Of a stretch of DNA of 64,000 nt, positions 48,874-59,036 are shown piece after piece. This DNA is from a virus. The stretch's first letter is position 1; the number at the start of each line of letters is the position of its first letter. Where the stretch lies: IMG/VR virus record IMGVR_UViG_3300046799_000011, positions 47,670 to 111,669 of that record. The stretch is one strand, 5' to 3'. The notes beneath the pieces were generated by a model, which was given only the letters and a program-made list of their open reading frames with translations, was not told where the DNA came from and searched no databases. The position numbers were made by a program, and so were the translations under genes.

Positions 48874-49276
48874 TAATAAAACTCAAATCTGGCTTGACGT
48901 AAGTATCGGGCTTAAGAATCTTCCCAAAGTGGTTACGTACAACCATACCATCAGACCAAACCTTGGACATATTTGATTCATGCACTACCTTGAATACCTC
49001 TTCAATAGGGATACCAAGTTCTTCAGCAGTTCCATAAACTACATAAAGCAGATCAGCCAATTCCTTGGCCAGCTCTTCCCTCGCCTCTGCCATAGAACTG
49101 GAAGTCTCATTAAAGTAAGTATTCTCCAGGTACTCAATAGCTTCAGCTACTTCCCGGGATTCCTCCGTAATAAGGTTATGTCGCCGAGTAGTTTTCATAG
49201 GGAGAAAATCATTACGCTGTTCAGGGGCAAACTTATCATGAAATTCCTTGAGATCAGCCATAGGATTATAAGTCAT
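48863..49276 (-). CDS. MazG-like NTP pyrophosphohydrolase
   Basis: LITEESRE...KELADLLYVVYG...VHESNMSK...KILKP. Confidence 0.9.
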   Translation of the reverse strand: MTYNPMADLKEFHDKFAPEQRNDFLPMKTTRRHNLITEESREVAEAIEYLENTYFNETSSSMAEAREELAKELADLLYVVYGTAEELGIPIEEVFKVVHESNMSKVWSDGMVVRNHFGKILKPDTYVKPDLSFINEY

Positions 49277-50250
49277 TAGTAAAGGACCCCATTAACGGAG
49301 AAGTTACCATCCTGAACAGATACCAGGTGGGGGAATACCTTATCTCCGTATACTTCAAGAATTCCGAATGCTTGCTGCCAGTTAGCAGTAGCCCCCTTCT
49401 TCTTAAGGTAATCAGCAGATTTGATATCCATAAAGTGCCCAACTTCCATACCAGTAAGCTGTCGCTGATTCCCTCCATTGTATCCGAGGGTTTCAGGGGT
49501 GATACCAGCACGGTGAGTGTGACCACAAACCACAGAGACGCCAAACTTGTTCTTGGCCAAGCCTAGAGCAGTCTTACCACCAGAAGGGCTAAGAGAGCCT
49601 TCATCCCCATGTGCCATGACCCAACCGGGTGCAAGTTCTACAACCGCGTCACGGATAAACTCAACATCGTTGTCATCAAAACCTACCTGCTTCTCTATGG
49701 TCAAATCACGAAGATTCAGTCCCGGTCCACAAGCATCAATATAAAGTTCAAGGCGATCGTCGTGGTTAGACCGAACGATACGGAATCGTCCATCAAATAC
49801 TTCTCGAATCTCTTCTAGAATCCAACGAGAAGCATCAAATCCTGCCTGAAGATCTCCGCCGAATTCACCCTTCTTTCCACGAACCCAACGGCTGATCTCA
49901 GTAGAGTCCGTAAAGTCTCCTACCTGAGCAAGCTCATCCGGCTGAAAGTCTCCAAGGAACTTGATGAACTTGTCAACAAGAATCGTGTCATGTAGCGGAG
50001 CCTGCACATCCGGCATGATGACAATCGTCTTTGCTCGCTCGCTGCCAACATTGGTTACGGGAGCAATTACTACAAGATGCTTGTCACGCCAAGTACGGAT
50101 AAGCTTCTCGGATACAACAATGTTCTTCTGTTCAATAAGATTTGCCTTTGCGGAAAGGCGGCCTAGATTCTGGTTGTTGAGAATATTGTAGATATCCTGG
50201 TCAACCTTGGCCAGAATTTCCAGCTCAACAATACTTGTTACGGGCTGCAC
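49276..50250 (-). CDS. calcineurin-like metallophosphoesterase
   Basis: PDVQ, GDFTD, SNHD, HGD, GHTH. Confidence 0.88.
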   Translation of the reverse strand: MQPVTSIVELEILAKVDQDIYNILNNQNLGRLSAKANLIEQKNIVVSEKLIRTWRDKHLVVIAPVTNVGSERAKTIVIMPDVQAPLHDTILVDKFIKFLGDFQPDELAQVGDFTDSTEISRWVRGKKGEFGGDLQAGFDASRWILEEIREVFDGRFRIVRSNHDDRLELYIDACGPGLNLRDLTIEKQVGFDDNDVEFIRDAVVELAPGWVMAHGDEGSLSPSGGKTALGLAKNKFGVSVVCGHTHRAGITPETLGYNGGNQRQLTGMEVGHFMDIKSADYLKKKGATANWQQAFGILEVYGDKVFPHLVSVQDGNFSVNGVLY

Positions 50251-50317
50251 TGCGCCTCCTCCTAAAGTAAAAGACCTGCATAATGCAGTACATACTACAC
50301 TACGCAGGTCTTGTTGT

Positions 50318-50749
50318 CTACTTCTTGAATAATAGGTCTACTACGCCAATGGCCAAAGGAATCATTACCATGGACACCAGCCATCTGAATTGAGACTGAC
50401 GGGCCTTTATGTAACTTTTGTGTTCTTCTGTTCGTAGTTTGGCCTCATCTGTTATAGCCTTTTCATAACGCTCACGTTCTGTTTGGATATCGCGTCTGAA
50501 GGTTTCAAAAGATGCTCGTACTTCTAGTTTAATAGCCGTTATATCATCTTCGGAATCGTGAACTTTCTCATTAAGATTATCAAATCGGATATCGGATGCG
50601 CGCTTATCCGCATCGTATTCAAGTTTTGTCAGCAGTTTATCCAGGCGGCTGGAAAAATCAGTAAACCGAGTTTCAACGTTTCTTTGCAAACCGTCTAACT
50701 CTCTCTGTACCGCCCCGGACCACTGTATTGGCTCTGGTTGTGTCGTCAT
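50318..50749 (-). CDS. coiled-coil protein with C-terminal TM helix
   Basis: Heptad-rich region; FRWLVSMVMIPLAIGVV. Confidence 0.7.
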   Translation of the reverse strand: MTTQPEPIQWSGAVQRELDGLQRNVETRFTDFSSRLDKLLTKLEYDADKRASDIRFDNLNEKVHDSEDDITAIKLEVRASFETFRRDIQTERERYEKAITDEAKLRTEEHKSYIKARQSQFRWLVSMVMIPLAIGVVDLLFKK

Positions 50750-50918
50750 AATGGCAACTCACTTGGGGCTAGATCTGAAAAGGACAACAGCATAAGACCT
50801 TGTCATCCGTTCATTTCTCCAAATTTCCTGCCCCAAACGTGTTTGAGTGAATTGGTCTAGTGCTATTTCCCCTTAAGGATAACACTAGACCAATCACTTT
50901 TGTGCATACTGAAAGTAA

Positions 50919-51956
50919 TTACTCAGCACTTGGACGAACCAGATCCCATAGCTTACTTGTCAGGTCTCTGCCGTCCAGAATACCGAACATAAAGCTTTCA
51001 TACTGCATACCCTTCACCCTTAATGCGAAATCCTTTCTGGTGTGATTTACTGGCAGATCCAACGTTACTAACCAGTAATCGTCCTTGATACAACCATACG
51101 TTATGGCAAAATCGTCATTGATAGTCTGGTAGGTGTCGCGCAGCCACTCGTGCCATTCATCCGGAACAAACTCACAAAGATCCTGAAAGGTCTTGCCTTC
51201 TTTCATAAGTTCCCAGACACGTCGCGCTGTTAACCCAGTTACGATCTTGTGCAGAATGATGTAATCCTCCTGCTTGATCTTGATACGGTAGTCCAGATCT
51301 GGGAAGTAGACTACGTAACCTTCCGCATTGAGCCTAGGAGGGGCCTCCAGGGCCTCTCTAAGCGTCTTGTAGTGGTAGGTAGCGGCCCTAGGACCCCGCC
51401 ACGTTACAACGTCCTTAGGAAGCAATACAGAGCCTTCCTCAATGTCACGTACGCCTAGTAGCACCAGCTCATCCATCTCACCGTAGTTAAGGACGATACG
51501 GTTAGTAGGATAAACGATTTCGAATAGATAAGTCCATTCGGGAGCTACAGAGAAACCGTACTTGGCCTGCCATACCAGAGTTGCATGGATAGCTTGTTCA
51601 GAAGTAAAAGAGCCACGAGTAGCAATACCCTGAACACCTTCGTAATCCCAGAGGATACCAAGAGAGCCATCCATCTTGTCGGTAGCCACTATAGGATAAT
51701 CCATAAGCAACTTGTCAGCCTGATTCTGTCCATAGTTCATGAACTTGTCAAAGGGCCGAGCAATTACCTTGTTCTCCGAGTTAACGATAAGACCACGACA
51801 CTGGGTAGTTACGGGATTCCATAACTGCTCGTACTGCGCCTTTTCCGTATAGTTGAGAATTCTAAGGTCTAGATACGGGTGAGAGTTCTCTCGTATATAC
51901 CCGTTGGATAAATTAGATTGGTACAGGTCATAGTCAAATAGATCGAACAGATACAC
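50919..51956 (-). CDS. RNA ligase (T4 Rnl1-like)
   Basis: CRGLI...RPFDKFMN; KMDGSLG motif I; ATRGSF; LFEI; EGYV; KIK. Confidence 0.93.
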   Translation of the reverse strand: MYLFDLFDYDLYQSNLSNGYIRENSHPYLDLRILNYTEKAQYEQLWNPVTTQCRGLIVNSENKVIARPFDKFMNYGQNQADKLLMDYPIVATDKMDGSLGILWDYEGVQGIATRGSFTSEQAIHATLVWQAKYGFSVAPEWTYLFEIVYPTNRIVLNYGEMDELVLLGVRDIEEGSVLLPKDVVTWRGPRAATYHYKTLREALEAPPRLNAEGYVVYFPDLDYRIKIKQEDYIILHKIVTGLTARRVWELMKEGKTFQDLCEFVPDEWHEWLRDTYQTINDDFAITYGCIKDDYWLVTLDLPVNHTRKDFALRVKGMQYESFMFGILDGRDLTSKLWDLVRPSAE

Positions 51957-53223: not shown

Positions 53224-53301
53224 AGCGCACAAGCGGAATCGAACCGCTAACCAACAGTTTTGCAGACTGTCTCTGAATCCCATCAGATTAGGTTTATGCG
53301 C
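53224..53301 (-). tRNA. tRNA-Cys(GCA), atypical D region
   Basis: ACAGT-CT GCA AA-ACTGT; long connector before D stem. Confidence 0.8.
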
Positions 53302-53305
53302 ATTG

Positions 53306-53383
53306 TGGATCTGCTCGGAATCGAACCGAGGTCCGAAGAAGTTCCGCGTGCGGCCTTAATCTTCGTCGAAACCTACCAAACCC
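53306..53383 (-). ncRNA. minimal tmRNA-like RNA (tRNA-like domain only)
   Basis: 5' GGGTTTGGTAGGTTTCGAC and 3' GGACCTCGGTTCGATTCCGAGCAGATCCA match tmRNA termini; G3:U70, A73; only about 30 nt between them. Confidence 0.8.
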
Positions 53384-55649: not shown

Positions 55650-57245
55650 TTACCAGAAGATCTTGCCGTTGGCAAACTCCCATGGCCACTTCTGGCTCTG
55701 ACCTGCTTCCAGCAAAGGAATCATCTGGAAGCCCTTGTCAGTCAGTCCTCCGAAGGTGTGACGCTTCTTAGAACCGGACTCACTCTGACCCACACGATAC
55801 CCTTCCAAGTTCCAAGTGTACACCGGAGTGCTAACCGGAACAGACGCTAGCGGATCTCCACCCCAACCGTTGCACTGCTCATCCGTGACGATGATAACAC
55901 GGTCATGACCCTTGAAGCTACCCTTAACCGCCGCAGCGGTATCAGTGCCGCCCATGTCACGGAACTTATCCATCATCGGAAGAAGAGAATCACCCTTTCG
56001 GAATGAAACCTTCTCAAAACCCACTCCACGCCAAGGAGAACCAAACTGAACCAGATCCGCACTCTCGGCACGAAGCGCAAGCGCAGAACCGAAGATAGCA
56101 GCCTTGTCAGCCATAGTCAACTCGGAATCGGTACGGTGATGCTGGAACATAGAACCGGAACGGTCAACCAGGATCAGAGTACGTCCAGCCAGGGACGGAA
56201 CGTTACTCAGAGATGCATTAAGAGCTTCCTCAAGTGCCGCAGCAATCTTAAGGTTACCCTTATTGGCCTGGTAAGCCGCAAGGTAACGGAATGGGAACTG
56301 CTTACCCTTTGCTACCTGCTCAGGATCAGAGATCTTAGCCAGAACGAACTTCATAGTAGCGCTAGATACGCGTGCATCCGCAATGTTACGCAGGTTACGC
56401 AGCAGAGCCATGTGTCCCATGTTCGGAATAACAGCAGTCCAAGCCTGAGTATCCATAGGGCCCTGAAGCCATCCGGACAGAGCTTCCCACGTCATACCTG
56501 CACGTGACAGAGTCTGCATACCTGCCTGAGTACCAATAAGCTGCTTACGCTTCTCAACTGGTGCAGACATCAGATTAGCACGAGTGCTGATCATGTCAAG
56601 ACTCTGAGGAACACTAATGGCATTACCATAACGGCGGTCAAGAGCGTACTTGAATAGGTCATTCTGCTTAGCATCGTTAGCTTCTACGTGAGCAAGCTGG
56701 ATAACGTCAGCAAAACGGAATGCCTTATCCGTGTCGTACTTCAGAAGAGAATACTCGTTGTACAGCTTACGCGCACCATCCTCAACACCCTTCTTGACAG
56801 CCGCAGGGATGTTCTTGCCGTACTTAGAAGTCCAGTACGCAAGGAACTCACCCGGCTCATCGGCACGGGCCATAGAAGCCGCTACAAGGGCCCTAGGAAC
56901 GCCTGGGACATGCCCAGAGTCCAGAAGTGCCTTAACACCTTCCGCAGCCGCTACAATCGACGCTGAGCGCATGAATGCCTCATTACGCAGCCAGCCGACA
57001 AAGCCTAGGAACCAAGCGGAGTCCTGAACAGCAACTTCGCGTACCAGAGAGGAAAAACGGTCATCCCGGCTCTTGGCCTTCTCGTAGAAGGTATCCTGGC
57101 CAACCATGTTGGCAACAGCCAGCAAAAACAGCTCACTCTTCTTCTCACGCTCGAACCCTGCCTTGAACTCAGCATTCAGAGCAGACTTAGTGGACTTGAC
57201 AGGGGAAGTTACCCCCAACTTTACTGCCTGATTGAACTTTGCCAT
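55650..57245 (-). CDS. rsr: Ro60/Rsr TROVE-domain RNA-binding protein with vWA domain
   Basis: ELFLLAVANMVGQDTFYE; WLRNEAFMRS; MTWEALSGW; MALLRNLRN; QFPFRYLAAY; MIDAS DRSGSM, GGTD, VTDEQ. Confidence 0.95.
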   Translation of the reverse strand: MAKFNQAVKLGVTSPVKSTKSALNAEFKAGFEREKKSELFLLAVANMVGQDTFYEKAKSRDDRFSSLVREVAVQDSAWFLGFVGWLRNEAFMRSASIVAAAEGVKALLDSGHVPGVPRALVAASMARADEPGEFLAYWTSKYGKNIPAAVKKGVEDGARKLYNEYSLLKYDTDKAFRFADVIQLAHVEANDAKQNDLFKYALDRRYGNAISVPQSLDMISTRANLMSAPVEKRKQLIGTQAGMQTLSRAGMTWEALSGWLQGPMDTQAWTAVIPNMGHMALLRNLRNIADARVSSATMKFVLAKISDPEQVAKGKQFPFRYLAAYQANKGNLKIAAALEEALNASLSNVPSLAGRTLILVDRSGSMFQHHRTDSELTMADKAAIFGSALALRAESADLVQFGSPWRGVGFEKVSFRKGDSLLPMMDKFRDMGGTDTAAAVKGSFKGHDRVIIVTDEQCNGWGGDPLASVPVSTPVYTWNLEGYRVGQSESGSKKRHTFGGLTDKGFQMIPLLEAGQSQKWPWEFANGKIFW

Positions 57246-57281
57246 TACTGCCTCCTTTGTAGTGTGGTACGTCAATAAGTC

Positions 57282-57315
57282 AAAATAAAACCCACCAGTA
57301 TCGGAATACGGTGGG
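57282..57315 (-). terminator. hairpin plus U-tract between the Y RNA array and rsr
   Basis: CCCACCGTATTCCGATACTGGTGGG followed by TTTTATTTT. Confidence 0.6.
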
Positions 57316-57326
57316 TATCAAAAATA

Positions 57327-57435
57327 AATACCTAGAAATAACGGTTTGAGGTGTATAGGCCCCATGCCTTAAGGGGATTCGAACCCCATGGTTTCATTAG
57401 CAATTGAAGTAACCCCATACCAACGCATCGGTATT
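57327..57435 (-). ncRNA. Y RNA-like unit 4 (T-arm mimic)
   Basis: AATACC/GGTATT closing stem; CGATGCG, GTTACTTC, TTTCTAG; GGGG TTCGAAT CCCC. Confidence 0.8.
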
Positions 57436-57444
57436 GTAAATTTA

Positions 57445-57520
57445 TTACCCTAGAAAAAGTCGCATACAGTGTCTTGTATTCCATAATGAGTGAAGTAACT
57501 GTTTGCTGCGCATCGGGTAA
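57445..57520 (-). ncRNA. Y RNA-like unit 3 (minimal, no tRNA-like insert)
   Basis: TTACCC/GGGTAA stem; CGATGCG, GTTACTTC, TTTCTAG. Confidence 0.75.
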
Positions 57521-57538
57521 AGCTTATTTAATTATAAA

Positions 57539-57646
57539 AGCCTAGAAATAGCGACCAAGGAAAGGGCACCAGCCCATAGGCGTTGGAATCGAACCTTCGC
57601 CCTCATATTGTTGGTTGAGGAAGTAACCCTAGTCTTCGCATCGGCT
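57539..57646 (-). ncRNA. Y RNA-like unit 2 (T-loop mimic)
   Basis: AGCC/GGCT stem; CGATGCGAAG, GTTACTTC, TTTCTAG; GGTTCGATTCC. Confidence 0.8.
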
Positions 57647-57658
57647 ATTAAGTTTTAA

Positions 57659-57800
57659 GACAACTAGAAAGAGCGATAAAAGTGCTATTATCTGACCGGT
57701 GCTCTGCCACTGAGCTATCAACCATCGAATTGGCTGAGAAGGATTCGAACCTTCGACACTCGGTTCCCTGTGAAGTATCTCTTATCTTCGCATCGTTGTC
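57659..57800 (-). ncRNA. yrlA: YrlA-like Y RNA (unit 1) with full permuted tRNA-like domain
   Basis: GACAAC/GTTGTC stem; T arm GAAGG TTCGAAT CCTTC, then closed acceptor TCAGCCA/TGGTTGA, then D arm GCTC AGTGGCA GAGC; next to rsr. Confidence 0.88.
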
Positions 57801-57808
57801 AAATCTAA

Positions 57809-57913
57809 TTGGTAAGTCGTAGCATCCCGGACTCAAACCGGGGCGACGAATCTGCGGACTCGTACTCTATCCCTGAGTTAATACTACGAGACCTTACGAT
57901 CTCGACTTACCAA
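57809..57913 (-). ncRNA. tRNA-like RNA embedded in an extra three-way junction
   Basis: TTGGTAAGTC/GACTTACCAA outer stem, GAGATC-GTAA-GGTCTC hairpin, tRNA core with abnormal anticodon loop. Confidence 0.65.
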
Positions 57914-57915
57914 AG

Positions 57916-57987
57916 CTCCTCGTGCTGGATTCGAACCAACAACCGGTCGATTAACAGTCGACTGCTCTGCCGTTGAGCTAACGAGGA
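57916..57987 (-). tRNA. tRNA-Asn(GTT)
   Basis: GTCGA-CT GTT AA-TCGAC. Confidence 0.94.
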
Positions 57988-58028: not shown

Positions 58029-58058
58029 ATACTACCAGAGGTTGTTAATCTCTGTCAA
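58029..58058 (-). promoter_or_regulatory. promoter for the tRNA-Asn/Y RNA cluster
   Basis: TTGACA-18-TAGTAT. Confidence 0.7.
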
Positions 58059-59007: not shown

Positions 59008-59036
59008 ATAGTACCACTGGGATACTATGGTGTCAA
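59008..59036 (-). promoter_or_regulatory. promoter immediately upstream of tRNA-Thr
   Basis: TTGACA-17-TACTAT, overlapped by the palindrome CCATAGTA...TACTATGG. Confidence 0.75.

What the first reader, a model, noticed from the sequence alone, without database searches (positions are those of the whole stretch)
57809..57913. tRNA-shaped RNA with an extended, branched acceptor arm at the head of the Y RNA array
Seen: a tRNA core (acceptor GTAGTAT/ATGCTAC, D arm ACTC-AGGGATA-GAGT, T arm CCCGG-TTTGAGT-CCGGG) whose anticodon loop has 6 or 8 nt (CGAGT-CCGCAG-ATTCG) instead of 7. The core is enclosed in a three-way junction with no unpaired linkers: a 10-bp outer stem TTGGTAAGTC/GACTTACCAA plus a GTAA-capped hairpin. 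The 3' strand ends in ACCA. It lies between tRNA-Asn and the first Y RNA, downstream of the same promoter. Inference: a non-decoding tRNA mimic, either a decoy for nucleases, RNase P or synthetases, or a substrate or fifth partner of the Ro60 system.
Basis: partly seen in the sequence, partly recalled or inferred. Interest (0 to 1): 0.7.

Follow-up and report, generated by a model that had tools for sequence, protein, structure and literature searches.

The report
Stem-clamped non-decoding tRNA look-alike in phage
An uncultured soil phage related to Streptomyces phages encodes, between tRNA-Asn and its Ro60-partner Y RNAs, a 105-base tRNA-shaped RNA whose ends are locked in a helix and whose decoding loop is one base short; it is real and non-random, but near-identical strains carry or lack it, it has no Ro60-binding motif, and its function is unknown.

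Summary
On the minus strand, 57913-57809 folds as described: a canonical tRNA core, a 6-nt anticodon loop, a 16-nt hairpin and a perfect 10-bp terminal helix meeting in a linker-free three-way junction. Whole-RNA z is -5.45. Shuffling only the flanks gives z about -6 (0 of 2000).

It is not a Y RNA of this phage family, because it lacks the conserved CGAUGCG / UUUCUAG / UUACUUC handle. No homolog was found in about 125 related Ro60 loci.

It occupies a hypervariable "slot 0" after tRNA-Asn. In relatives this slot holds a fifth Y RNA, other stem-closed RNAs, or nothing.

Metagenome contigs show three states:
- near-identical strains that lack exactly 112 nt;
- one strain that keeps the element with a remodelled but still paired hairpin and a changed loop base;
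- strains identical to the window.

One architectural twin turned up in an unrelated crAss-like phage. It has a 4-nt anticodon loop and a 7-bp leader-trailer helix. Only 1 of 522 ordinary phage tRNAs reaches 7 bp.

Best reading: a strain-variable, stem-protected, non-decoding tRNA mimic whose partner is unknown. A role as a Ro60 partner is not supported.

This scan has noted anticodon-less tRNA look-alikes in other phage genomes before. I found none described in the papers searched.

The parts
57809..57913 (-). Whole 105-nt tRNA-shaped RNA: terminal helix, 5' hairpin and tRNA core
   Evidence: MFE -45 kcal/mol, z -5.45. The same fold appears in the precursor context.
57904..57913 (-). 5' strand of the 10-bp terminal (outer) stem, UUGGUAAGUC
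   Evidence: In the control the leader-trailer helix scores 11 counting C(-1)-G73; the maximum in 522 ordinary tRNAs is 7.
57809..57818 (-). 3' strand of the terminal stem, GACUUACCAA. It continues directly from the acceptor 3' strand, so there is no free discriminator or CCA.
57888..57903 (-). Hairpin GAGAUC-GUAA-GGUCUC inserted at the -1/+1 junction. This is the variable part.
   Evidence: In run X5 the segment CGUAAGG is replaced by AAUCAGUUCAUA, yet a 6-bp stem GAGAUA/UAUCUC remains.
57819..57887 (-). tRNA-like core: 7-bp acceptor, D arm, anticodon arm, 4-nt variable loop and T arm
   Evidence: Rfam RF00005 scores 38.2 bits at 57818-57887. The core alone folds as a cloverleaf at -25.3 kcal/mol.
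57847..57862 (-). Anticodon arm CGAGU-CCGCAG-AUUCG: a 6-nt loop, or alternatively a 7-bp stem with a 4-nt loop
   Evidence: The X5 allele has CAGCAG (57856 G>T on the plus strand), so it is still 6 nt.
57801..57912 (-). The 112-nt segment present or absent between near-identical strains: the element plus the linker UUAGAUUU
   Evidence: Contigs of runs X7 and X12 join 57800 to 57913. The joint reads GAGCUU|GACAAC, as in relatives L018, L025 and L056.
57916..57987 (-). tRNA-Asn(GUU), immediately upstream
   Evidence: 65.4 bits.
58029..58058 (-). Promoter-like site TTGACA-18-TAGTAT upstream of tRNA-Asn
   Evidence: This is a consensus match only.
57327..57802 (-). Four Y RNA units downstream, each with a terminal stem, the CGAUGCG ... 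UUUCUAG handle and UUACUUC
   Evidence: (YrlA 35.1 bits, below the gathering score).
57281..57316 (-). Hairpin plus U-run (terminator-like) that closes the RNA array before the Ro60 gene
   Evidence: Read directly from the sequence.
55650..57245 (-). Ro60 (TROVE plus vWA) gene

Best explanation
The element is a gene for a stable, non-decoding tRNA look-alike. It is one of several interchangeable stem-closed RNA cassettes that can occupy the first slot of this phage family's tRNA-Asn / Y RNA / Ro60 transcription unit.

Proposed working, all inferred. It is transcribed with tRNA-Asn and the Y RNAs. Processing of the tRNA-Asn 3' end and trimming by exonucleases stop at the 10-bp terminal helix, as they would at the terminal stems of the neighbouring Y RNAs. 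This leaves an RNA of about 105 nt. Its L-shaped body and elbow look like tRNA to shape-reading proteins. As made, it cannot be charged, because its 3' end is buried and it has no CCA. It cannot read a codon, because its anticodon loop has 6 nt.

It would then act as a free-standing version of the tRNA-like module carried by YrlA-type Y RNAs. It would work without Ro60, as a competitor or decoy for a tRNA-binding factor. The setting is a phage region devoted to RNA damage and tRNA supply: at least 25 tRNAs, a mini-tmRNA, Ro60 with Y RNAs, an Rnl1-type RNA ligase and a metallophosphoesterase.

Shown: the sequence, the fold statistics, the slot polymorphism, the absence of the Y handle, and one architectural twin. 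Inferred: transcription, stability, and any binding partner.
For: - **Fold far beyond chance.** The element forms autonomously in the precursor context.
- **Intact tRNA core.** It scores 38.2 bits, within the range of this phage's real tRNAs (36.7-69.8). The canonical tertiary pairs can be read in the sequence.
- **Extreme terminal helix.** Of 522 distinct ordinary tRNAs from the same set of loci, only 1 has a leader-trailer helix of 7 bp and none is longer. The element has 10-11 bp.
- **A second allele keeps the design.** X5 shares flanks about 1% diverged. It keeps the terminal stem, the core and a 6-nt loop. Its hairpin is remodelled but still pairs over 6 bp, with C-G changed to A-U at the closing pair.
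- **An independent twin in an unrelated phage.** L135:933-1018 lies in a crAss-like phage contig. It combines a 5-bp anticodon stem with a 4-nt loop and a 7-bp leader-trailer helix that is continuous on the 3' strand, with a GA bulge exactly where the hairpin sits here. The pattern that found it did not ask for either feature.
- **Slot 0 in relatives always holds stem-closed RNAs.** The L020/L058 terminal stem shows a compensatory pair, and L061 has a terminal stem similar in sequence to the element's.
- **RNA-repair neighbours.** An Rnl1-type ligase and a phosphoesterase lie nearby.
Against: - **Orphan.** Blastn against phages found nothing. Two covariance-model searches over about 767 kb of related loci found nothing. 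Pattern scans of viral contigs found nothing.
- **Probably dispensable.** Strains with the same flank haplotype as X5 lack exactly this segment.
- **No expression or end-mapping data.**
- **Thin covariation.** It rests on one hairpin pair and one distant twin. The twin may be convergent or a coincidence of searching with tRNA-like motifs.
- **Processing not excluded.** RNase P cleaves the closed acceptor stem of M. smegmatis YrlA (PMC4201824), so processing into a free tRNA-like species remains possible.
Confidence: 0.45

Rival explanations
1. It is evolutionary debris: a captured tRNA gene that lost one anticodon-loop base and sits in a recombination-prone slot, with no function of its own.
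For: It is a singleton among about 125 related loci. It is present or absent between near-identical strains. The loop base varies between alleles. The slot shows many unrelated fillings.
Against: Decay does not create a perfect 10-bp leader-trailer helix plus a perfect abutting hairpin (0 of 2000 flank shuffles; 0 of 522 tRNAs). All four core stems and the tertiary pairs are intact. The same combination recurs in L135. The nearest tRNA in any related locus aligns only weakly with the core (best global alignment score 17.5 over 70 nt), so it is not a fresh copy of a neighbouring gene.
Confidence: 0.22
2. It is a processing or stabilising signal. In one version it is a tRNA-shaped mark, like mascRNA or plant-mitochondrial t-elements, that recruits RNase P or RNase Z to separate tRNA-Asn from the Y RNA precursor. 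In the other it is a 5' structure that shields the downstream Y RNAs from 5'-end-dependent decay.
For: It lies at the boundary between a tRNA and the Y RNA array, and L135's twin lies between an ORF and tRNA-Thr. Relatives have simple hairpins in the same slot, for example the L017 GUAA hairpin. RNase P can cut a closed acceptor stem in M. smegmatis YrlA (PMC4201824). The helix discontinuity sits exactly at the -1/+1 RNase P site.
Against: Relatives and sister strains with an empty slot evidently process the array without it. Each Y RNA already has its own terminal stem. Extensive leader-trailer pairing is generally unfavourable for RNase P and RNase Z (my own knowledge, not tested here).
Confidence: 0.15
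3. It is a fifth Y RNA of a different type, like D. radiodurans Yrn1: the Ro60-binding stem sits at the acceptor position and the tRNA-like body has a 6-nt anticodon loop.
For: It occupies exactly the slot that holds a Y RNA in G001, G002, Alone3, GiJojo and pSt2308, and it shares the downstream linker UUAGAUUU with them. Chen et al. 2014 (PMC4201824) model Yrn1 with a 5-bp anticodon stem and a 6-nt loop, in an orientation different from YrlA. GUCGA at the stem/hairpin junction resembles GGUC(C)GA and GNCGAA.
Against: It has no CGAUGCG, no UUUCUAG internal loop and no UUACUUC, which are invariant in every unit of every relative. Its terminal helix is uninterrupted. Rfam gives no meaningful YrlA or Y_RNA match for it; the only overlapping YrlA match is 15.3 bits, E 7.4, and spans tRNA-Asn as well. 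The L135 twin has no TROVE gene in its MAG.
Confidence: 0.1
4. It is a decoding tRNA with an expanded 8-nt anticodon loop that reads a four-base codon or suppresses frameshifts, and it is released from its clamp by RNase P and 3' trimming.
For: ARAGORN -ps draws it with a 5-bp stem and an 8-nt loop, UC-CGCA-GA. The phage's other tRNA genes also lack an encoded CCA.
Against: The base that differs between alleles lies in the putative anticodon. There is no position 26 and the variable loop is 3 nt in that drawing. The ends are buried. It has no recognisable identity set: A3-U70, G73. L135's twin has a 4-nt loop that cannot decode.
Confidence: 0.03
5. It is a miniature mobile element: a cargo bounded by 10-bp terminal inverted repeats that inserted after tRNA-Asn.
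For: There is a precise 112-nt presence/absence difference with 2-nt ambiguity at the joint. It has perfect 10-bp inverted repeats.
Against: It is single-copy in the genome and absent from all collections searched. The inserted segment extends 8 nt beyond the 3' repeat, and that tail is shared with relatives that carry a Y RNA in the slot. There is no clear target duplication and no transposase.
Confidence: 0.05

Closest known systems
YrlA-type Y RNAs of bacteria and Ro60-encoding phages (Rfam RF02553; Chen et al. 2014, PMC4201824)
   Same: A stem-closed ncRNA encoded just upstream of Ro60 on the same strand, in a polycistronic array with tRNAs. It contains a tRNA-like D arm and T arm and cannot decode.
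   Different: In YrlA the tRNA-like domain is permuted (T arm, acceptor hairpin, D arm) and hangs on the Ro60-binding stem at the anticodon position. Here the order is that of a normal tRNA, the closing helix extends the acceptor stem, and the family's Ro60 handle is absent.
D. radiodurans Yrn1 as modelled in Chen et al. 2014 (PMC4201824)
   Same: The terminal stem occupies the acceptor side. The "anticodon arm" has a 5-bp stem and a 6-nt loop. It is made in one precursor with a tRNA.
   Different: Yrn1 carries the conserved Ro60-binding bulged helix and has only partial D-loop features and no variable arm. This element has a complete D arm and an uninterrupted terminal helix. I could not compare sequences directly.
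Canonical tRNA (Rfam RF00005)
   Same: A cloverleaf with a 7-bp acceptor, a 4-bp D stem, a 5-bp T stem and the canonical tertiary positions. It scores above the gathering threshold.
   Different: The anticodon loop has 6 nt. The 5' leader and 3' trailer are fully paired. There is no free discriminator or CCA. There is no assignable identity.
mascRNA / MEN-beta tRNA-like elements (RF01684) and plant mitochondrial t-elements
   Same: tRNA-shaped, non-decoding structures embedded in longer transcripts.
   Different: Those work by being cut by RNase P and RNase Z at accessible acceptor ends. Here the acceptor ends are clamped, and the slot can be empty without evident loss of the array.
Anticodon-less tRNA look-alikes noted earlier in this scan in other phage genomes (e1-3109779, e1-5409231, e1-5758674 and others; unchecked AI notes)
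   Same: tRNA bodies with a closed or shortened anticodon arm, located in phage tRNA clusters.
   Different: Those are reported as conserved families. This one is a strain-level orphan. Its distinguishing features are the 10-bp terminal clamp with a hairpin at -1 and its position at the head of a Y RNA array.

Membership tests
tRNA (RF00005) | Cloverleaf with acceptor, D and T arms that scores above the Rfam gathering threshold | tested here: met
   38.2 bits against a gathering score of 29 at 57818-57887. The core alone folds as a cloverleaf.
tRNA (RF00005) | 7-nt anticodon loop presenting a triplet | tested here: not met
   The loop is CCGCAG (6 nt) in the window and CAGCAG in X5. Alternative drawings give 4 or 8 nt. 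ARAGORN at default settings makes no call.
tRNA (RF00005) | Free acceptor end: mature 5' end at +1 and a single-stranded discriminator plus CCA | not testable with these tools
   As encoded, both ends are paired for 10 bp. Whether RNase P or 3' trimming frees them requires RNA end mapping.
Y RNA of this phage family (YrlA type) | Terminal stem formed by the 5' and 3' ends, encoded upstream of Ro60 on the same strand | tested here: met
   The element lies about 560 nt upstream of the Ro60 start codon.
Y RNA of this phage family (YrlA type) | Conserved handle: 5' CGAUGCG opposite 3' UUUCUAG as an internal loop next to the terminal stem, plus UUACUUC | tested here: not met
   All three motifs are absent from 57809-57913. 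They are present in all four downstream units and in every unit of the relatives.
Y RNA of this phage family (YrlA type) | Match to the Rfam YrlA model | tested here: not met
   The only match is 15.3 bits, E 7.4, and it spans tRNA-Asn plus part of the element. Unit 1 scores 35.1 bits.
Y RNA (any type) | Binds Ro60 | not testable with these tools
   No RNA-protein binding tool is available. This needs EMSA or co-purification.
Yrn1-type Y RNA | Ro60-binding helix motif (GGUCCGA-like / GNCGAA) in the 5' strand of the terminal stem | tested here: inconclusive
   GUCGAG at the stem/hairpin junction matches 5 of 6 positions of GNCGAA, which is too short to weigh (motif from PMC4201824).
tRNA-like processing elements (mascRNA, t-elements) | Cleaved by RNase P and/or RNase Z at the acceptor end | not testable with these tools
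   The structure argues against easy access. There are no cleavage data.
Miniature inverted-repeat mobile element | Multiple dispersed copies with terminal inverted repeats and target-site duplication | tested here: not met
   It is single-copy in the 111.7-kb genome and has no copies in the collections searched. There is only 2-nt joint ambiguity.

The most novel reading that the evidence does not exclude
Stem-clamped tRNA look-alikes with shortened anticodon loops are a recurrent phage device found in unrelated lineages, here an actinophage and a crAss-like phage. In this reading they are tRNA-shaped RNAs made deliberately unchargeable and undecodable. They soak up or misdirect a host factor that recognises tRNA shape, for example a tRNA-cleaving defence nuclease. 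In Ro60 phages they are exchangeable with Y RNAs as cassettes of one stable-RNA operon.
Probability: 0.2. Interest if true: 0.75.

Novelty: new variant of a known kind. Interest (0 to 1): 0.5.

Why it matters
Phage Y RNAs and their tRNA-like modules are known, but what the tRNA mimicry is for remains open (PMC4201824). This locus offers a natural experiment. In one phage lineage, the same slot of the same operon carries one of four things:
- a Ro60-handle Y RNA;
- a handle-free full tRNA mimic;
- other stem-closed RNAs;
- nothing.

The last difference is seen even between strains about 99% identical. If the tRNA mimic is functional, the tRNA-shaped module can act without Ro60. That would point to a tRNA-binding partner, and the pair of strains with and without the element would make the question directly testable. 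If it is not functional, the locus still documents how quickly this RNA operon swaps cassettes.

Tried and rejected
**Homolog searches that found nothing**
- Blastn of the element against 50,697 phage records.
- Exact or gapped patterns in viral contigs. The 16-mer D-arm pattern gave 17 hits, all non-tRNA coding sequence.
- The pattern ATAGAGT...GGTTTGAGTCC gave 25 hits. These were ordinary tRNAs or unrelated sequence, and they show that the UUUGAGU T loop is common in phage tRNAs.
- Covariance model R1 over 46 and then 78 loci returned only ordinary tRNAs. R1 scores cannot separate the L135 twin (32.9 bits) from ordinary tRNAs with chance flanks (up to 35.2 bits).
- No close relatives of the L135 phage were found, by terminase in viral contigs, by the palindrome pattern, or in the phage records at 29% identity or less. 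Covariation in that lineage therefore could not be tested.

**Origin of the core**
- The best global alignment to any of 486 tRNAs in related loci is weak (score 17.5 of 70). No donor isotype could be named.

**Tools and data not available**
The many Logan contigs that encode Ro60 proteins 77-83% identical could not be fetched.
There is no evidence either way on expression.
- Complex prediction and the structure tools were not used, because the question concerns an RNA.

**Features rejected as significant**
- The 3' ACCA and the GUAA cap are conserved neither in X5 nor in L135.
- The idea that the TTGACA at 57802 is a separate promoter for Y RNA 1 was left open. It is part of a covarying terminal stem.

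Full report
**1. What is there**

The window is the right-hand 64 kb of a 111,669-bp IMG/VR virus record with direct terminal repeats. Its nearest cultured relatives are Streptomyces phages BRock, Alone3, LuckySocke, GiJojo and pSt2308. These share the gene order tRNA-Trp, tRNA-Asn, about 0.5 kb of RNA genes, then Ro60.

All the genes discussed here lie on the minus strand. Reading that strand, tRNA-Asn (57987-57916) is followed after 2 nt by the 105-nt element (57913-57809). Then come the linker UUAGAUU, four Y RNA units, a hairpin plus U-run, and the Ro60 gene (TROVE plus vWA).

**2.

The minimum-free-energy structure is exactly the drawn three-way junction, at -45.0 kcal/mol, z -5.45. It forms unchanged inside a 366-nt precursor together with the tRNA-Asn cloverleaf and the stem-closed Y RNA 1. 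The core alone folds as a cloverleaf. Shuffling only the flanks gives -31.0 +/- 2.3 kcal/mol, and none of 2000 shuffles reaches -45.

Rfam's tRNA model scores the core at 38.2 bits (gathering 29). This is within the range of the phage's real tRNAs.

Reading the sequence against standard tRNA numbering, the tertiary set is intact:
- U8-A14;
- G15-C48;
- C13-G22-G46;
- U12-A23-A9;
- G53-C61;
- U54-A58;
- G18G19 facing U55U56, where position 56 is U rather than C. This variant is common in phage tRNAs.

The anticodon arm is the anomaly. It reads as a 5-bp stem with a 6-nt loop (Rfam), a 7-bp stem with a 4-nt loop (RNAfold), or a shifted 5-bp stem with an 8-nt loop (ARAGORN -ps, "tRNA-?(Ala|Cys)(cgca)"). 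ARAGORN at default settings does not call it.

**3. Is the terminal clamp unusual?**

I measured, for 522 distinct ARAGORN tRNAs from the window and all fetched loci, the longest Watson-Crick helix between the 3' trailer abutting the acceptor and the 5' leader. I allowed up to 20 nt of 5' insertion. The distribution ends at 6 bp (10 cases) and 7 bp (1 case). The element scores 10-11 bp. The clamp is therefore not a general property of tRNA flanks in these phages.

**4. It is not one of this family's Y RNAs**

Each Y unit here and in relatives has four parts:
- a terminal stem;
- an internal loop made of 5' CGAUGCG and 3' UUUCUAG;
- a second stem;
- a multiloop that starts with UUACUUC.

Stems covary between phages. 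For example, UGACAAC/GUUGUC in the window corresponds to UGACAGC/GCUGUCA in relatives, and GAUAAGAG/CUUUUAUC corresponds to GUUGAGAG/CUUUCAGC. Unit 1 gives a sub-threshold YrlA match of 35.1 bits.

The element contains none of the three motifs, and its terminal helix is uninterrupted. The only resemblance is GUCGA at the stem/hairpin junction, compared with GNCGAA or GGUCCGA (PMC4201824). That is too short to count.

Chen et al. 2014 describe D. radiodurans Yrn1 as modelled with a 5-bp "anticodon" stem and a 6-nt loop, in an orientation different from YrlA. This is an architectural parallel. It keeps the Ro60-partner idea alive at low probability.

**5. The slot is hypervariable**

Immediately after tRNA-Asn, relatives show three kinds of content.
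- **Nothing.** GAGCUU|GACA(A/G)CGAUGCG in BRock, L018, L025, L056 and L059.
- **A fifth Y RNA, "Y0".** Seen in G001, G002, Alone3, GiJojo, pSt2308, L024, L057 and L064.
- **Other stem-closed RNAs without the handle.**
  - L017 has a small GUAA-capped hairpin.
  - L020 and L058 have an element of about 65 nt whose terminal stem changes U-A to C-G between the two phages.
  - L023 and L026 have other stem-closed inserts.
  - L061 has an RNA of about 100 nt with a T-arm hairpin. Its terminal stem, (A)GGAAGUC ... GCUUCC(U), resembles the element's GGUAAGUC ... GACUUACC.

The element shares with the Y0-bearing relatives both the upstream CUU and the downstream linker AUUAGAUUUGACA. It therefore sits in the Y0 frame with a different interior.

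**6. No homolog in relatives**

Blastn against the phage records found nothing at E of 10 or less. A covariance model of the whole element (R1) found only ordinary tRNAs in 46 sources (272 kb) and 78 further Ro60 loci (495 kb).

**7. Strain-level evidence from public metagenomes**

Twenty-two DNA runs, from soil, root and rhizosphere metagenomes plus one groundwater and one sediment run, hold words of the stretch laid, at shares from 1.00 down to 0.13. Laying contigs of four of them gave the following.
- **X6** is identical where it is covered.
- **X5** has flanks about 1% diverged (5 substitutions and 1 indel in 516 nt) and keeps the element. The terminal stem and core are unchanged. One loop base differs (CCGCAG to CAGCAG). 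The hairpin segment CGUAAGG is replaced by AAUCAGUUCAUA. Rebuilt in a script, this allele still folds the same way, with a 6-bp hairpin GAGAUA/UAUCUC. The wobble U-G becomes U-A and the closing C-G becomes A-U.
- **X7 and X12** carry the X5 flank haplotype but join 57800 directly to 57913, skipping exactly 112 nt. The joint is the "empty" sequence seen in L018, L025 and L056.

The cassette is thus gained or lost on a very short time scale and is probably dispensable under some conditions. The GUAA cap is not a conserved feature.

**8. One architectural twin**

A single scan of 596 Gb of prokaryote genome contigs, for the D arm plus the T loop, returned one locus, L135. It is a 128-kb contig binned with an archaeal MAG, but it encodes terminase and portal proteins distantly related to crAss-like phages. 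No TROVE gene was detected in that MAG.

At L135:933-1018, between a small ORF and tRNA-Thr, lies a tRNA-like RNA with these properties:
- Rfam tRNA 42 bits, ARAGORN silent;
- a 5-bp anticodon stem and a 4-nt loop;
- a 7-bp leader-trailer helix, AAGUAGU/ACUACUU, continuous with the acceptor 3' strand;
- a 2-nt GA bulge on the 5' strand at -1, exactly where the hairpin sits in the window's element.

The pattern did not require a shortened loop or a clamp. A 7-bp clamp is reached by 1 of 522 control tRNAs. With only two cases this is suggestive, not proof, of a recurrent design. Homology versus convergence is open.

An earlier first-reader note of this scan appears to describe the same or a related cluster (e1-1097219). 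Several follow-ups describe anticodon-less tRNA look-alikes in other phages. I treated these as leads only.

**9. Context**

The same strand carries 25 ARAGORN tRNAs and an 81-nt match to the tmRNA model. It also carries an Rnl1-type RNA ligase (50919-51956; PF09511, phrog_562) next to a metallophosphoesterase (49276-50250; phrog_221). By analogy with T4 Pnkp and Rnl1 acting against anticodon nucleases (established knowledge), this phage seems equipped for tRNA damage. That makes a tRNA-shaped decoy plausible, but it is not evidence for one.

**10. Verdict**

| Reading | Probability |
|---|---|
| Strain-variable, stem-protected, non-decoding tRNA mimic acting independently of the Y RNA handle | about 0.45 |
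| Non-functional debris | about 0.22 |
| Processing or stabilising signal | about 0.15 |
| Yrn1-like Ro60 partner | about 0.10 |
| Mobile element | about 0.05 |
| Quadruplet-decoding tRNA | about 0.03 |

The literature searches found YrlA and Yrn1 tRNA mimicry and phage Ro60-Y RNA complexes (PMC4201824, PMC12135203). They found no description of clamped, anticodon-shortened tRNA look-alikes in phage tRNA or Y RNA arrays. I class the element as a new variant of a known kind (tRNA-mimicking ncRNA), of moderate interest. What limits it is its orphan status and the lack of any expression data.

Noticed in passing
window 53303-53383 (-): An 81-nt match to the Rfam tmRNA model covers model positions 1-374 (54.2 bits, gathering 47). 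It looks like a tRNA-like domain of tmRNA with essentially no mRNA-like domain. It lies between an odd tRNA-Cys-like gene and tRNA-Val.
   Followed up: partly
window 53224-53301 (-): A tRNA found by Rfam (40.4 bits) but not by ARAGORN. Its anticodon loop reads CUGCAAA (Cys GCA), and the D region is unusually long or rearranged.
   Followed up: no
window 49276-51956 (-): An Rnl1-type RNA ligase (PF09511, phrog_562) lies next to a metallophosphoesterase (phrog_221). This is a probable RNA end-healing and sealing pair flanking the tRNA array.
   Followed up: partly
L020:1792-1860 and L058 (same slot): A stem-closed RNA of about 65 nt without the Y handle sits in slot 0 of two relatives. Its terminal stem changes AGAUCU/AGAUCU to AGAUCC/GGAUCU, a compensatory pair.
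   Followed up: partly
L061:1829-1935: Slot 0 holds a stem-closed RNA of about 100 nt with a T-arm-like hairpin (ACGGUUCAAUUCCGU) and no CGAUGCG motif. Its terminal stem resembles that of the window's element in sequence.
   Followed up: partly
L135:933-1018 (+): A crAss-like phage contig binned in an "uncultured archaeon" MAG carries a stem-clamped tRNA look-alike with a 4-nt anticodon loop at the head of a Thr-Met-Asp-Cys tRNA cluster. The binning is probably wrong.
   Followed up: partly
window 58029-58058 and 59008-59036 (-): Promoter-like sites upstream of tRNA-Asn and tRNA-Thr share TTGACA-N17/18-TA(G/C)TAT followed by CCCAG. They overlap or precede palindromic hairpins. This may be a phage-specific promoter or operator motif.
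   Followed up: no
window 57797-57802 (-) and the same place in relatives: The invariant TTGACA at the start of Y RNA 1 scores as a -35 box, with GATACT 17 nt downstream. It is also the 5' strand of a covarying terminal stem, so a dual role as promoter and RNA is possible.
   Followed up: no
L077:2065-2130, L105:2846-2942, L134:1125-1218: ARAGORN -ps reports tRNA-??? calls with 8-nt loops close to the Ro60 gene in more distant Ro60 loci. They are probably tRNA-like parts of Y RNAs.
   Followed up: no
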